A stretch of DNA of 64,000 nucleotides from the human T2T-CHM13v2.0 reference genome, Homo sapiens. The DNA lies in assembly GCF_009914755.1 (NCBI RefSeq), contig NC_060940.1. One strand, 5' to 3'. Shown piece after piece: positions 22,888 to 31,762 of this stretch (position 1 is the stretch's first letter; every line of letters starts with the position of its first letter). A program made the position numbers and the translations under genes. The notes beneath the pieces were generated by a model. The model had not been told where the DNA came from. It was given only the letters and a program-made list of their open reading frames with translations, and did not search any database.

Positions 22888-23537
22888 CAGCAGGACCTTG
22901 AATAGCATCATTTTATTCAACATCCTTTCATTGTAACATTGATGAGGGAAAAAAGTCAATTCCCGGCCAGGATCCTTGTCGGTGTCAAGTTTACACGTTC
23001 TTCCCATGTCTACGTGGGTTTTTTTCCAGGTACTGTGGTTTCCTCCCACATCCCAGAGCTGTGCCCATTTGGTGAACCGGCATGTCTAAATGGTCCCAGG
23101 ATCAGTGATTGTGGGTATGTGTGAGTGCAACCTATGATGGGAGGGCATCCTGTCCGGGGCTGGTTCCCACTTTGTGATTGACAGCTGGGTATTTACACTC
23201 AGCTGTAAATGGGCAAATCAATCCCTGAGCTTCTGGGATAGGCTACAGTGATCCATGACTTGGCTGGCATAATTGGGTACATAATTCTCTCACTTGTTTT
23301 TATTAATCTTTCTTACACGTATGTATATATCACATTTATTTCACTATTTAATATTAGACGTGTTTTGGGTCTTGATTTAGAAATTTAGTGATGTTTTTGT
23401 GACCAGAAATATGCCATAGGAGCTCAACTCTTATTTATGTCAATTAGGCTATGGTAAAACTGGTTTTCTTATGCATTATTTTGCCTAAAGATCCAGTTTC
23501 CAAGAACCTATCAATGACATTAAGTGAGGACTTACTA
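22888..23537 (-). mobile_element. MER82-like TcMar-Tigger DNA transposon
   Basis: Ends CAGCAGGACCTTGAATA and CAAGAACCTATCAATGACATTAAGTGAGGACTTACT; internal GGTTTCCTCCCACATCCC and GGGATAGGCT. Confidence 0.75.
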
Positions 23538-23909: not shown

Positions 23910-24367
23910 GACACTTGCAGAAAAAAGAACAAAGCAGCAGCTAACCCACAAAAAACCCTATTAAGTATAAGAATACCATATGTGATGGCATCATGTCAGA
24001 GGAAGAATGCAGAATTAGGTAATAAAAACCACTGAAAAAACTGGTTAAATACTTGAAGTGAAAAAAATTGGTTTCTTACTTTGGCCCATAATAAAGTTCA
24101 GATGCTAACTAAACAAACAAACAAACAAAAACCTTTAAGAAGGTAGGAGAAACTCTATATATGTATCTATTTGTATATACACTATATAATCAATTATATT
24201 TATATAAGTAAACACCTCTCTCTATGTGTGCATATATACAGATCATGTTTATATGTGATTAAGAAACAGAAGGAATGACTAACCTTAAAAGTAATGTAAT
24301 AAATATCAAAAGAAAAAAAAGGATTTGATCAGACATATTAAAATTTCTCAACATAACCACACAGGTG

Positions 24368-24373
<6 letters not shown>

Positions 24374-24450
<77 letters not shown>
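24374..24450. repeat. Compound (TA)~23(CA)~16 microsatellite
   Basis: Directly visible. Confidence 0.95.
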
Positions 24451-25004: not shown

Positions 25005-26446
25005 CAAATGTACTAATCTTAATAAAGACCAGTGTGTTCAAAGAGTTTATACAAAATAAAACCAGAAAAAATATCCTAAAGAAAAAATGGGTAAAGGATA
25101 CAAACAATTCACACAAGAGAAATATACAAATAATTACAATCATTTTAAAAATTTCAACCTCATTAATAAATGCAGTCTTAAAAACAATATACTATTTTAT
25201 TTCTTAAAAGACAGCAAGTTTCAAAAATTGTCATTTTTGATAAAAATTTAGAGAAACTAGCCCTCGTATTCCTTCTCAAGAGATGTATAATCTAGAGTCA
25301 TTTTTCTAGAAGAAACCTGACACTATGTATCAAGGACTTTCATAATAATTCTTATAACCTTTAAGCCAGTCATTCCTCCACTCATAAAAATGGAGTGTAG
25401 GAAAATACTCATCCATGTTCAAAAAAAATGTGTATAAGTTGTTTATCTTGTAACAATAGCAAAAAAAAAAAAGAGAGAAATAAATAAAAGAAACCTGGAG
25501 GAAACCCACGTGTCCAACTACAGGATATTTATTAAATAAATGTTAACAATCCATTGTGCAGTGTATCATTACAGCCTTTGAACTAGCAAGGCTTACAAAA
25601 ATATTTAATGACATGGGTTATGCACATATTTTAGTGTTAATTTAAAAAACAGCAATAAATCATCATGAATTCAATTTCAGAAAAATTTAAGAGAAGAAGA
25701 GATACTTTATAGAATAAAAGTCTAAAGGAAACTATCAAACTATCCTTTGTGGATATAGAGGATTTGTATGTATGGGATATAGAGGATTTGTATTTTCTTC
25801 TTTATTTGTCTTTATTTTCTACAACAAGCATGCATTACTAAAAATTGGATAATTTTATTTTTCAGAAGAGTATGTTAAAAGCATGTCTTTTAATGCAGCC
25901 TAACAAGATTCTAAATATGTTTTTAAATGGCCTTAAATATGTTTCTCTATGGATAGTTGAGGCTAAGAAAAATGGTGAAGTACAAGGAAGGTAAATATGT
26001 TTCCCAAGTGCCATCATTCCTCTTACCTGCATCTGTGGCAGACATCACAAATCAATCCCAGTACTCTTTTCTGCTAGGTTCAGGTGCCTGCTGGGCACAT
26101 GCACTGGAAAGCTGCTACCAGTTAATCTCTTAAAATGATTGCCTATCTCTGATTTTGAAAAGAGCCCTGATGTGCTTTTCAAGAGACAACGATCCCGATT
26201 CTATATATTAGCCACCACCTGAGCCTTAGAACCTATCTCTGTAAACTGAGGGTTATAGACAACTGCGTCAGCACTGGGAAATCCTGACCAGCTGTTCCAT
26301 TTCCGAAGACCACCACCACGCTCATCCATCCCCCCAAACTCCTGCCTTTCCACAGTAGTCTTGCAACAAATCATCACATACCTGTAGAAGTTTCGTTGAG
26401 CCGTCTAGTACCCCATTTTGATTAACGTTCGCTCTTCCCTGTAGAT

Positions 26447-26658
26447 CTGAGTTTCTTGATGGTGGCATTATTGATGCTTTGGACCTCACAATTCTTTAAC
26501 TGGGGGCCTGTCTTGTGCATTTTAGAATGTTTAGCAGCATCTCTAGACACCATTCACTAGATGCTGGAAGCTCACCCCTAGCCAAGACGTTCAAAAATGT
26601 CTCTTGACATTGCCAAATGTCCCCTGGGGGGCAAAGCGGCATTTTTTGAGGACCACTG
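26447..26658 (-). mobile_element. MER20
   Basis: GTGCATTTTAGAATGTTTAGCAGCATC...AAAATGTCTC...GACATTGCCAAATGTCCCCTGGGGGGCAAA...GAGGACCACTG. Confidence 0.85.
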
Positions 26659-26914
26659 TTGTAGATCCTCCTCCTCTGTAGGAAGAAATTAGTTCCTTTA
26701 GATTCTGAGGTTCACTGAAGGTCACTCCCTACCCTCAGCAGGGATGGAGTGAAAAAGGGATCTGAGAAAGCTTCCCACCTTTCAGTCAGGCCTCTCTTCG
26801 GGAAAAGACCACGTCCCTGAGGGTCTAGGGTGGAGACCCTGGGGATGCAACCTGCTGCACTTTACTCTCCCTACTGTGCACATGGCACAGCTGCCAAGGA
26901 CCAGAGCCATCCAT

Positions 26915-27025
26915 TGGAGAGCATAAATCACTATTCAGGGCCGGCTGGGCACTTAGCATAATGGGGTGATTGACAGGTGGATATTTACACTCAGCCGTCT
27001 TTAAGTGGGCAAATCAATCAGCTGG
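26915..27025. promoter_or_regulatory. TALE/HOX motif cluster (candidate enhancer core)
   Basis: CATAAATCA (26922-30), TGATTGACAG (26967-76), TATTTAC, ATCAATCA (27013-20). Confidence 0.5.
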
Positions 27026-27641
27026 TGGCAGTGTAGAAAGGGGGTAGCAGAAGGAATTAACAGGCTCCAGGACCACTGTGTCCACTCCCTGCGGGTACCA
27101 CAGAAGATTCTGGAAAATTTTTGTACAGAGCCCTGCTTTGAGGCATTTATAATGAGGCTCCTTTATGGCCTCCTGGCTTTCCAAGCTGTTACCTTACACG
27201 GGCAAAGTCTCCATTTTCTCCATCTCATGGTGAGAAAACTGAGGCCCAGTGAGGTAAAGAGATGGGGTCAACCACTGGTGATAAAGTCAGGCTTGCTGAC
27301 TTATGTTCAAAGGGTCTAGTTCTTCAAATTAAACAAAGAAAATAAACATGCCCCATTTTTGTCAGAGCCAACATGATTTCTAACTTTCAGTTCATCATTT
27401 TGGGCTGAGGGGGATGTAATTCAATTAAAGACAGAAACATTAAGTACACAGTAAAACTATCACACGTTGAGGATTTATAGGGGTATGGATTAACAGCATC
27501 AGTAAAGTATTTACCTTAATCAATAGGAAAAGGTGATTTAAATGTTTAGGAGCCTCCTGCACTTCTGCCGGCCAAGGCTTCTTTTAAAAGCTTGTATTTG
27601 GTTGACACACTCCTCAGTTTCCCCCAATGTGCTCCCCTTAG

Positions 27642-27706
27642 CAAAGTTAATTACCATGGTTGACGTCCTTCCCTTCAAAGTTAATTACCATGGCTGACGT
27701 CCTTCC
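27642..27706. repeat. 34-bp tandem duplication
   Basis: CAAAGTTAATTACCATGG(T/C)TGACGTCCTTCC twice, one mismatch. Confidence 0.9.
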
Positions 27707-27744
27707 TTCCTTTCCATACCACCATGGCTGCCTTTGACCCCTCT

Positions 27745-28065
27745 TTTAGGTTCTCCTAAAGGAGATGCTGCAATCAAGTTCCGGGTACAAGATTTTTTTA
27801 AGAATCAACATCTGTGATACTTAGGAGGAAACAGGATTGAGCACAGGAAGGATCTGAACTCTGGTGCAGCCCAGCAGAGACACAGCCAATCTGGCAGGGA
27901 GCTCTGGAGTGGGAGCGCTGCTCTCAATGGCTCCAATTAAATTAAGGCACAATGACCAGGCCTTTGTACCGTCCCTCACCCAAGTGCCCACTAACCCAGG
28001 AAGGGCATAACCTCAGGCAAGGTGGTTCTCTGCAGCTCAGACAGACCCTAAAGGAGCTGCCACAA
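27745..28065. mobile_element. ERVL LTR (LTR16-like)
   Basis: ATCAACATCTGTG...CAGGATTGAGCA...GGGAGCTCTGGAG...GGCCTTT...GGAAGGGCATAACCT. Confidence 0.55.
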
Positions 28066-30442: not shown

Positions 30443-31321
30443 CCTTACTTGGTGTTGATCAATCTCCCCTTCTCCCCTCTCTTTTGACCCTCTTTCCTCT
30501 CTTCAACCCCTGCACCTGGAAAATATGCCCAGGGAGTTAGGAAATACGCTACCCACTAGAAAAATGGGAATGCTGCTTTGGGAGAAGGAAACTCAACAGA
30601 TCAACAGATGAAATATGGAGCCTTCAACGGAAGAGCTGGGATTTCAAAGTCACCCTCCCATGACCAGAGGGGAATGTCAAAATCTTTCCATCCTTAGATC
30701 CCAAAGGTCTGTGCTACCCACCCCTATGATCACTCTTTAACCTGGCCTGCCTCAATCCCTCCTCAGCCAGAGGGTCTAACATCATTTCTGCATCTCCTCC
30801 AGGTCCCTTCTGTTTTCTCAGGGGAGACCATGGAGTTGCCTAGATCTCTTTTATTTTAAATCCATTCTTCATCTGAAATGAGCCTTTAATGCAAGCCATA
30901 TCAAATTCTTTTGGAAAGTAGGAAGCTAGACATCATAAATAAACACATTTGGATTAAGTGGGGAGCAGGTCAGAGAGAAGGCGGAATTACAGGATAATTT
31001 TTAAGTGGATGCAGCTTTATTCCTCTCAAGAATTTACAGTGACTCTTCCCGCGCTGTCATCCTATGAATCTAACTGCTGACAAATTATCTCTAAGTTGAG
31101 GTCCTGCTGGGACTTCTTTGTTGAGTAAATTAGAGGACAGGTTTCCATACTAATTGTAGGCTAGCAATTGTACTAATGACAAAGGAATCCTCCCTATTCA
31201 TCATAAGTAGGTTGAAGCAGGGTCTGCCTCATTCTCCATCCCCTTCACATAACTGATGCATTGCTCAGGGAGCCTCGGCTTCATGGCTTCAGCAAAAGCC
31301 CTGCTCAGCTGGGGCAGCTTT

Positions 31322-31762
<441 letters not shown>

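What the first reader, a model, noticed from the sequence alone, without database searches (positions are those of the whole stretch)
23174..23223. A TALE-motif enhancer core copied into a DNA transposon 3.8 kb away
Seen: GTGATTGACAGCTGGGTATTTACACTCAGCTGTAAATGGGCAAATCAATC (23174-23223) matches unique DNA at 26966-27019, with 46/50 aligned bases identical plus a 4-nt indel. By my recollection of the MER82 consensus (...TTGTG|CCCTGAGC...), 23177-23222 is a clean insertion into the transposon, with GTG and C microhomology to the donor at the junctions. Both copies keep the PBX-MEIS/PREP decamer TGATTGACAG, a forkhead-like TATTTAC and GCAAATCAATC. The segment is bounded by inverted GATTGA/TCAATC. 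The inserted copy also has internal inverted repeats (ACAGCTG..CAGCTGT; TTTACA..TGTAAA). Inference: a locally templated insertion (template switching or theta-mediated repair) moved a complete TF-site cluster into a TE, a possible route to enhancer birth.
Basis: partly seen in the sequence, partly recalled or inferred. Interest (0 to 1): 0.72.

Follow-up and report, generated by a model that had tools for sequence, protein, structure and literature searches.

The report
Short DNA copied into old transposon
A 46-base stretch of unique human DNA carrying a PBX-MEIS binding motif was copied into an old transposon remnant 3.8 kb away by a known kind of copying error, and nothing yet shows that either copy works as an enhancer.

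Summary
Window 23174-23223 matches 26966-27019 at 46 of 50 aligned bases plus one 4-nt gap. These are the only two such sites found in the 3.1-Gb genome.

The first site lies in a roughly 650-bp transposon copy (22888-23537) with terminal inverted repeats. Sibling copies mostly have TA flanks. All 29 of 29 aligned siblings lack the 46 nt and read straight through the junction. No transposon base is lost. The junctions overlap the donor by GTG on the left and C on the right.

So this is a clean, templated, direct-orientation insertion from 3.8 kb downstream. A microhomology-primed template switch fits best. It is too long and too distant for typical polymerase-theta insertions.

The "enhancer core" part is untested:
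- The donor is not an annotated element.
- The copy loses one base of the donor's TGATTGAT site.
- The copy changes the E-box.

All five differences between the two copies make the inserted copy a better hairpin. Random change from a donor-like state rarely achieves this (48-127 of 20000 simulations). The reverse direction does not stand out (4522 of 20000).

The insertion is real, belongs to a known mechanism class, and is of moderate interest.

The parts
22888..23537 (+). Old non-autonomous DNA transposon copy (short form of a family with roughly 580-bp and 830-bp forms). Terminal inverted repeats begin CAGCAGG and end ACTTACTA. It is the recipient of the insertion.
   Evidence: 485 first-look candidates genome-wide, 40 scored, all 40 at E<=0.001 (39 besides the window's own copy); full-length alignment to siblings; ends, with TA flanks in most siblings; 41 of 270 sites (15.2%) differ from the majority of 30 copies.
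23177..23222 (+). The 46-nt templated insertion. Its placement is ambiguous by the 3-nt and 1-nt overlaps.
   Evidence: absent from 29 of 29 sibling copies; absent from 9 of 9 short-form copies; the only private insertion of 12 nt or more in 30 copies that is neither a local duplication nor Alu-like.
23174..23176 (+). Left junction overlap GTG, shared by the transposon family sequence and the donor.
23223..23223 (+). Right junction overlap C. One base is chance level.
26966..27019 (+). Donor (template) stretch of 54 nt in DNA that is single-copy at the sensitivity of the genome search.
   Evidence: only the donor itself and the insert match..
23175..23184 (+). PBX-MEIS/PREP-type decamer TGATTGACAG in the copy.
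   Evidence: Motif identity from PMC3261376 (passage).
26967..26976 (+). The same decamer in the donor.
27013..27020 (-). TGATTGAT (fits the PBX-HOX consensus TGATNNAT), in the donor only. Its first base lies one position outside the copied stretch.
   Evidence: Consensus from PMC3261376 (passage).
23181..23206 (+). 10-bp stem (one G-T) with a 6-nt loop in the copy. The donor has three mismatches and a 4-nt bulge in the corresponding place.
   Evidence: the copy with flanks folds at -10.3 kcal/mol, z -2.77, with 2 of 200 shuffles as good; the donor folds at -7.3, z -1.50, with 12 of 200; simulations.

Best explanation
A germline copying error pasted 46 nt of nearby single-copy DNA, in direct orientation, into an already resident and decaying Tc1/mariner-type transposon copy. 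A 3' DNA end at the transposon site ending in GTG paired with the GTG at 26966-26968, 3.8 kb downstream on the same chromosome. It was extended for 46 nt along that template, then returned to the original site with a one-base overlap. No original bases were lost, duplicated or added. Shown: the insertion, the single donor, the orientation, the overlaps and the intact donor. Inferred: the direction of copying, from the homology ending exactly at the transposon breakpoints. Inferred: a date later than the transposon. Inferred: the enzymology, where a replicative or break-induced template switch (FoSTeS/MMBIR type) is favoured over polymerase-theta end joining or a cDNA patch. The event duplicated a PBX-MEIS decamer and a forkhead-like heptamer. 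Whether either copy regulates anything is unknown. The default reading is a neutral scar.
For: The insertion is absent from 29 of 29 sibling copies, which read through the junction without a gap (9 of 9). None of the 39 other genomic matches of the transposon query covers the insert; most end at query 190-240 and the furthest at 250, where 237 corresponds to window 23176. The donor region matches only itself and the insert in 3.1 Gb (pattern search). Both copies are on the + strand. The junction overlaps GTG and C come from reading. There is no target-site duplication and no A-tract. Insert and donor differ at 4 of 50 sites, against 41 of 270 (15.2%) for the transposon copy versus its family majority. 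P(4 or fewer of 50) is 0.0005 if both sides had drifted since the transposon arrived. Literature passages: polymerase-theta templated insertions are 3-30 bp, come from flanking DNA, and have primary tracts rarely above 10 bp (PMC7165422). cDNA-patch insertions draw donors from 18 of 24 chromosomes without preference (PMC5110952), so a donor 3.8 kb away in cis argues for a DNA template close by.
Against: No outgroup or orthologous sequence could be consulted. The empty site is therefore inferred from sibling copies, not seen at this locus, and the date is loose. If the donor is fully constrained, P(4 or fewer of 50) is 0.105, so an insertion as old as the transposon is not excluded. The right overlap is one base, which is chance level. 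The published operational survey of MMBIR-type insertions covers only inverted templates within 100 bp (PMC8421209), so this event lies outside what that survey documents. All five copy-donor differences favour a hairpin in the copy. Random change from a donor-like state reaches that stability in only 127 of 20000 simulations, or 48 of 20000 with the real deletion kept. Simple copy-then-drift from a donor-like template is therefore not the whole story. Either the donor drifted (4522 of 20000 in the reverse simulation) or the changes were not random.
Confidence: 0.8

Rival explanations
1. [quoted passage not shown] One resected end primed on the distant GTG, copied 46 nt, dissociated and was joined to the other end.
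For: The 3-nt overlap at the priming junction and the templated, intact-donor nature of the insert. Insertions up to 157 bp were seen in the cited experiments (PMC7165422 passage).
Against: The same paper describes typical scars as 3-30 bp identical to flanking DNA, with primary tracts rarely above 10 bp and longer ones built from several rounds. Here there is one uninterrupted 46-nt tract from 3.8 kb away and no loss of flanking bases.
Confidence: 0.12
2. A cDNA or RNA patch (class 2 templated sequence insertion). A transcript of the donor region was reverse-transcribed and captured at a break in the transposon.
For: No target-site duplication, no poly(A), and microhomology at the junction, which are the stated class 2 features (PMC5110952 passages).
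Against: Donors of such patches are scattered over the genome (18 of 24 chromosomes). A donor 3.8 kb away on the same strand would be a coincidence unless a local nascent RNA was used. No transcript is annotated in the window (hub annotation). Rfam finds nothing at either site.
Confidence: 0.04
3. Both copies are insertions of one tiny mobile or palindromic element bounded by GATTGA/TCAATC, or both come from a third source now lost. In that case the 26.97-kb site is not the donor.
For: The shared segment is bounded by a terminal inverted repeat, which only 878 of 200000 random 54-nt window segments show. No empty site is available for 26.97 kb.
Against: Only two copies exist in the genome, 3.8 kb apart. 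A mobile element would be expected to leave more. There are no target duplications. The terminal repeat is also explained as two PBX-type half sites in inverted orientation.
Confidence: 0.03
4. Chance resemblance, or part of the transposon family sequence (which would make the copy direction transposon to 26.97 kb).
For: None found.
Against: E is 2.5e-7 against the whole genome, and the match lies 3.8 kb away. The segment is absent from 29 of 29 siblings. Homology stops exactly at the transposon breakpoints.
Confidence: 0.01

Closest known systems
FoSTeS/MMBIR-type templated insertions (MMB-TI) in human germline variation (PMC8421209, passages read)
   Same: A short insertion copied from an intact nearby template, with microhomology at the junctions and return to the original site without gross rearrangement. 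About 100 germline events of 25 bp or more per person are reported there.
   Different: That survey's definition is an inverted template within 100 bp. Here the template is direct and 3.8 kb away, so such events would not have been counted.
Polymerase-theta locally templated insertions (TINS) (PMC7165422, passages read)
   Same: Microhomology-primed synthesis that leaves a copy of other DNA at a repaired site.
   Different: Typical size is 3-30 bp, the template is in the immediate flanks, and tracts are rarely above 10 bp. Here there is a single 46-nt tract from 3.8 kb away with no flank loss.
Class 2 templated sequence insertions (PMC5110952, passages read)
   Same: No target-site duplication, no poly(A), junction microhomology, donor left intact.
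   Different: Those are described as RNA-derived patches from anywhere in the genome. Here the donor is in cis, 3.8 kb away.
Short template-switch mutations that perfect inverted repeats (PMC5453318, PMC8794818, PMC13100816; search listing and abstract openings only)
   Same: Clusters of nearby changes that turn an imperfect inverted repeat into a perfect one, which is what separates the copy from the donor.
   Different: Here the changes sit on both arms (two on the left, one on the right, plus the 4-nt gap and one more base). A single switch does not explain them, and the polarity is unknown.

Membership tests
Templated insertion by template switching (FoSTeS/MMBIR type) | Inserted sequence is absent from the pre-insertion state of the recipient | tested here: met
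   29 of 29 sibling transposon copies lack it. This is a proxy for the empty site; orthologues were not available.
Templated insertion by template switching (FoSTeS/MMBIR type) | An identifiable, intact template elsewhere | tested here: met
   26966-27019, with 46 of 50 identities. It is the only other match in the genome.
Templated insertion by template switching (FoSTeS/MMBIR type) | Microhomology at the switch points | tested here: met
   GTG on the left and C on the right. The right one is chance level.
MMB-TI as operationally defined by MMBSearch | Template within 100 bp and in inverted orientation | tested here: not met
   The template is 3792-3796 nt away and in direct orientation. The definition is from PMC8421209.
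Polymerase-theta templated insertion (TINS) | 3-30 bp copied from DNA flanking the break | tested here: not met
   46 nt with a donor 3.8 kb away. The definition is from PMC7165422.
L1-mediated (class 1) templated sequence insertion | Target-site duplication of 5 bp or more and a poly(A) tail | tested here: not met
   Neither is present at 23174-23230.
Class 2 templated sequence insertion (cDNA patch) | RNA origin of the patch | not testable with these tools
   The junction features fit, but no expression data are available. Cis proximity argues against it.
   Siblings have TA on the left in 6 of 8 readable 5' ends and on the right in 5 of 7 readable 3' ends. The window copy has TT on both sides. 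Repbase lists MER82 under Mariner/Tc1 (PMC5753468 table passage).
No Dfam or Repbase sequence is on hand.
PBX-MEIS-dependent developmental enhancer | Presence of the TGATTGACAG motif | tested here: met
   Present in both copies. Motif identity from PMC3261376.
PBX-MEIS-dependent developmental enhancer | Evolutionary conservation, open chromatin, factor occupancy or reporter activity | not testable with these tools
   No other vertebrate genome and no epigenomic data are held. The 24-nt donor string is absent from 9 supplement files of PMC3261376 and from all held papers. Line wrapping or the opposite strand could hide it.

The most novel reading that the evidence does not exclude
Kilobase-range, direct-orientation templated insertions may be an uncounted route by which ready-made transcription-factor site clusters are copied into new chromatin. 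Under this reading, the event seeded a lineage-specific TALE/forkhead/E-box element inside a transposon in the IRX5-IRX6 desert. The five hairpin-perfecting differences would then record a second, structure-directed template-switch step rather than drift.
Probability: 0.08. Interest if true: 0.65.

Novelty: new member of a known kind. Interest (0 to 1): 0.33.

Why it matters
This is a cleanly documented human example of a templated insertion whose donor is kilobases away and in direct orientation. The empty state is vouched for by 29 sibling transposon copies. The surveys whose methods I read look only within 100 bp and for inverted templates, so events like this one would not be counted there. 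Using transposon siblings as a stand-in for the empty site could be turned into a genome-wide screen. The event also shows that a factor-binding motif can be duplicated as a unit without any transposon moving it. That is a plausible but here untested source of new regulatory DNA near the IRX genes.

Tried and rejected
1. Dispersed repeat: rejected. Only two sites exist in the genome.
2. Part of the transposon family: rejected, 29 of 29 siblings lack it.
3. A multi-template complex event: no other shared stretch between the two neighbourhoods stands out. Family D8 (35 nt, 71%) is at chance level by my estimate.
4. A paralogous copy of the donor elsewhere, for example in the other IRX cluster: none found at E<=10 with 301-, 401- and 2501-nt queries. 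This search is word-based and would miss weak similarity.
5. A known RNA family at either site: none.
6. The donor in published element sets: the 24-nt string was not found. This is a weak negative.
7. A CpG-decay argument to polarise the C/T difference: dropped, because the 4-nt gap can be placed so that this difference disappears.
8. A single short template switch to explain all copy-donor differences: rejected by inspection, since both stem arms differ.

Full report
**1. The observation**

A script finds 46 of 50 identities with one 4-nt gap. Several gap placements are equally good. The repeat finder lists the pair as D6 (33 nt, 91%) and D13 (21 nt, 90%), both on the + strand and 3792-3796 nt apart.

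The match is far beyond chance:
- With 301 nt and with 401 nt round the donor as query against the whole 3.1-Gb assembly, the first look gave 2 candidates and both were scored. They were the donor itself and the transposon site, with E 2.5e-7 and 3.3e-7 for the genome.
- A 24-position pattern with up to 2 mismatches hit only these two sites, both at 0 mismatches. The reversed control pattern had 2 hits, as expected for near-matches in a genome of this size.
- TGATTGACAG occurs twice in the 64 kb, only at these sites. The expectation is 0.24, and 3 of 100 shuffles reached 2.

**2. The recipient is a transposon copy, and the 46 nt are extra**

A 341-nt query round the site found 485 first-look candidates in the genome. 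Forty were scored and all matched at E<=0.001. None of the 39 matches other than the window's own copy covers the insert. Most stop at query 190-240 and the furthest at 250, where 237 corresponds to window 23176.

I aligned the window copy (22888-23537) with 9 short-form siblings over the full length. I also aligned it with all 29 fetched siblings round the junction. In 9 of 9 and 29 of 29 the 46 nt are absent. The siblings read straight from ..CCTTGTG into CCCTGAGCTGCTGGGATAGG.. with no gap. The window copy keeps every flanking transposon base, so nothing was deleted, duplicated or added.

The left junction overlaps the donor by GTG and the right by C. The first is unlikely by chance (about 1 in 64). 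The second is not.

In a full alignment of 30 copies, private insertions of 12 nt or more fall into three groups:
- this 46-nt one;
- two local duplications, 17 nt in L021 and 24 nt in L014;
- Alu-like pieces in L009, L012, L013, L015 and L027.

**3. The family**

Copies begin CAGCAGG.. and end ..ACTTACTG. Siblings are flanked by TA at 6 of 8 readable 5' ends and 5 of 7 readable 3' ends. That is the Tc1/mariner pattern. The window copy has TT on both sides.

A Repbase overview lists MER82 under Mariner/Tc1 (PMC5753468, table passage). Another paper describes one MER82 copy as shared by human and mouse (PMC6979391, passages).

The family has forms of roughly 580 bp and 830 bp.

**4. Direction and date**

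The segment is not family sequence, so the transposon site is a recipient. Homology with the 26.97-kb site ends exactly at the two transposon breakpoints. Copying from the transposon to 26.97 kb would have had to pick precisely the earlier insert, so the direction is 26.97 kb to the transposon. A lost third source is possible but unparsimonious.

The window copy differs from the majority of 30 copies at 41 of 270 sites (15.2%, K2P 0.17). This is biased low because the siblings were chosen as best matches to it. Insert and donor differ at 4 of 50 sites. If both had drifted since the transposon arrived, P(4 or fewer of 50) is 0.0005. If the donor were frozen, it is 0.105. So the insertion is probably younger than the transposon, but this is not proven without orthologues, which no tool here provides.

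**5. Mechanism**

What is shown:
- a single uninterrupted 46-nt tract in direct orientation;
- an intact donor 3.8 kb away in cis;
- a 3-nt priming overlap;
- an exact return to the original site;
- no target duplication and no A-tract.

A microhomology-primed template switch (FoSTeS/MMBIR type) fits best. The alternatives fit less well:
- Polymerase-theta scars are described as 3-30 bp copied from flanking DNA, with primary tracts rarely above 10 bp (PMC7165422, passages).
- cDNA-patch insertions share the junction features, but they draw donors from 18 of 24 chromosomes without preference (PMC5110952, passages). That makes a cis donor at 3.8 kb a poor fit.
- The published germline survey of MMBIR-type insertions looks only for inverted templates within 100 bp (PMC8421209, passages). 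Events like this one fall outside it.

The enzymology is an inference. The sequence cannot separate a replicative switch from break repair.

**6. What was and was not copied**

Both copies keep TGATTGACAG, called a Pbx-Meis motif in PMC3261376 (passage), and TATTTAC.

The donor also has TGATTGAT on the minus strand at 27013-27020. It fits the Pbx-Hox consensus TGATNNAT of the same paper, though not its full KR extension. Its first base lies one position beyond the copied stretch, so the copy lacks it. That octamer is not enriched in the window: 2 were found against 4.73 expected.

The donor's CAGGTG is CAGCTG in the copy, and the copy has a second CAGCTG. So the copied "cluster" is not complete or identical.

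Neither site is a RefSeq functional element. The only one in the window is at 30830-31419 (hub annotation). I could consult no conservation, chromatin or occupancy data. The donor's neighbourhood holds old repeats: 26442-26665 has 1157 first-look candidates. The enhancer reading is therefore untested, and a neutral scar is the default.

**7. An unexplained asymmetry**

The copy folds into a 10-bp stem (one G-T) with a 6-nt loop at 23181-23206. The fold results are:

| Stretch, with flanks | + strand | - strand |
|---|---|---|
| Copy | -10.3 kcal/mol, z -2.77, 2 of 200 shuffles as good | z -1.75 |
| Donor | -7.3 kcal/mol, z -1.50, 12 of 200 shuffles as good | z -0.31 |

Three of the four substitutions turn a stem mismatch in the donor into a pair in the copy. 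The fourth improves a 3-bp extension of the stem, and the 4-nt gap removes a bulge.

Simulations give:
- Donor-like start, random 4-nt deletion plus 4 random substitutions: the copy's stability (-8.5 kcal/mol on the 50-mer) was reached in 127 of 20000 runs.
- Donor-like start with the real deletion kept: 48 of 20000.
- Copy-like start, random changes: as weak as the donor in 4522 of 20000.

Either the template was copy-like when copied and the donor has drifted since, which would argue against strong constraint on the donor. Or the changes were structure-directed, as in inverted-repeat homogenisation by template switching. For that literature I saw only listings and abstract openings (PMC5453318, PMC8794818, PMC13100816). 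A single switch cannot explain it, because both arms differ. An outgroup would settle this.

The shared segment also begins and ends with a 6-nt inverted repeat. Only 878 of 200000 random 54-nt window segments show this. The comparison is post hoc. The repeat may simply be two PBX-type half sites in inverted orientation.

**8. Verdict**

The templated insertion is supported. The enhancer-birth reading is open and unlikely on present evidence. This is a new, well-documented member of a known kind of mutation. Its value lies in the clean proxy for the empty site and in the donor distance and orientation, which the surveys whose methods I read do not cover.

Noticed in passing
window 27642-27747: Three head-to-tail units of 34 nt. 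The first two are 97% alike over 31 nt. Each carries TTAATTACCATGG followed by TGACGTCC, a homeodomain-like core next to a CRE-like core (motif names recalled). The array lies about 620 nt downstream of the donor.
   Followed up: no
window 26442-26665: An old high-copy repeat with 1157 first-look candidates genome-wide and 70-79% identity to the 40 scored. It lies about 300 nt upstream of the donor. By recollection it looks like a MER5-type element in reverse orientation.
   Followed up: partly
window 27205-27300: A stretch containing ..gagaaaactgaggcccagtgaggt.., which by recollection resembles the core of a MIR element. The genome search did not score it.
   Followed up: no
window 24357-24444: A (TG)n(TA)n(CA)n simple repeat that folds on itself. 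It gives matches well below gathering score to several microRNA families, the best being mir-297 at 50.8 bits against a gathering score of 90. These are most likely composition artefacts.
   Followed up: no
window 25751-25793: An exact 19-nt direct repeat (GGATATAGAGGATTTGTAT) with 24-nt spacing, which is a small local duplication.
   Followed up: no
loci L014 and L021, within about 30-50 nt 3' of the family position where the window copy is interrupted: Two sibling copies carry private local duplications (24 nt and 17 nt) in the same part of the element as the window's insertion. Three independent insertions in one short stretch of 30 copies may be chance or a fragile spot.
   Followed up: partly
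loci L004-L030 versus L002, L003, L018, L019, L021, L023, L025, L026: The family exists as a form of roughly 830 bp and a form of roughly 580 bp that differ by an internal block of about 300 bp. The long form carries a GAATGAATGAAT-type run there. Which form is ancestral was not examined.
   Followed up: no
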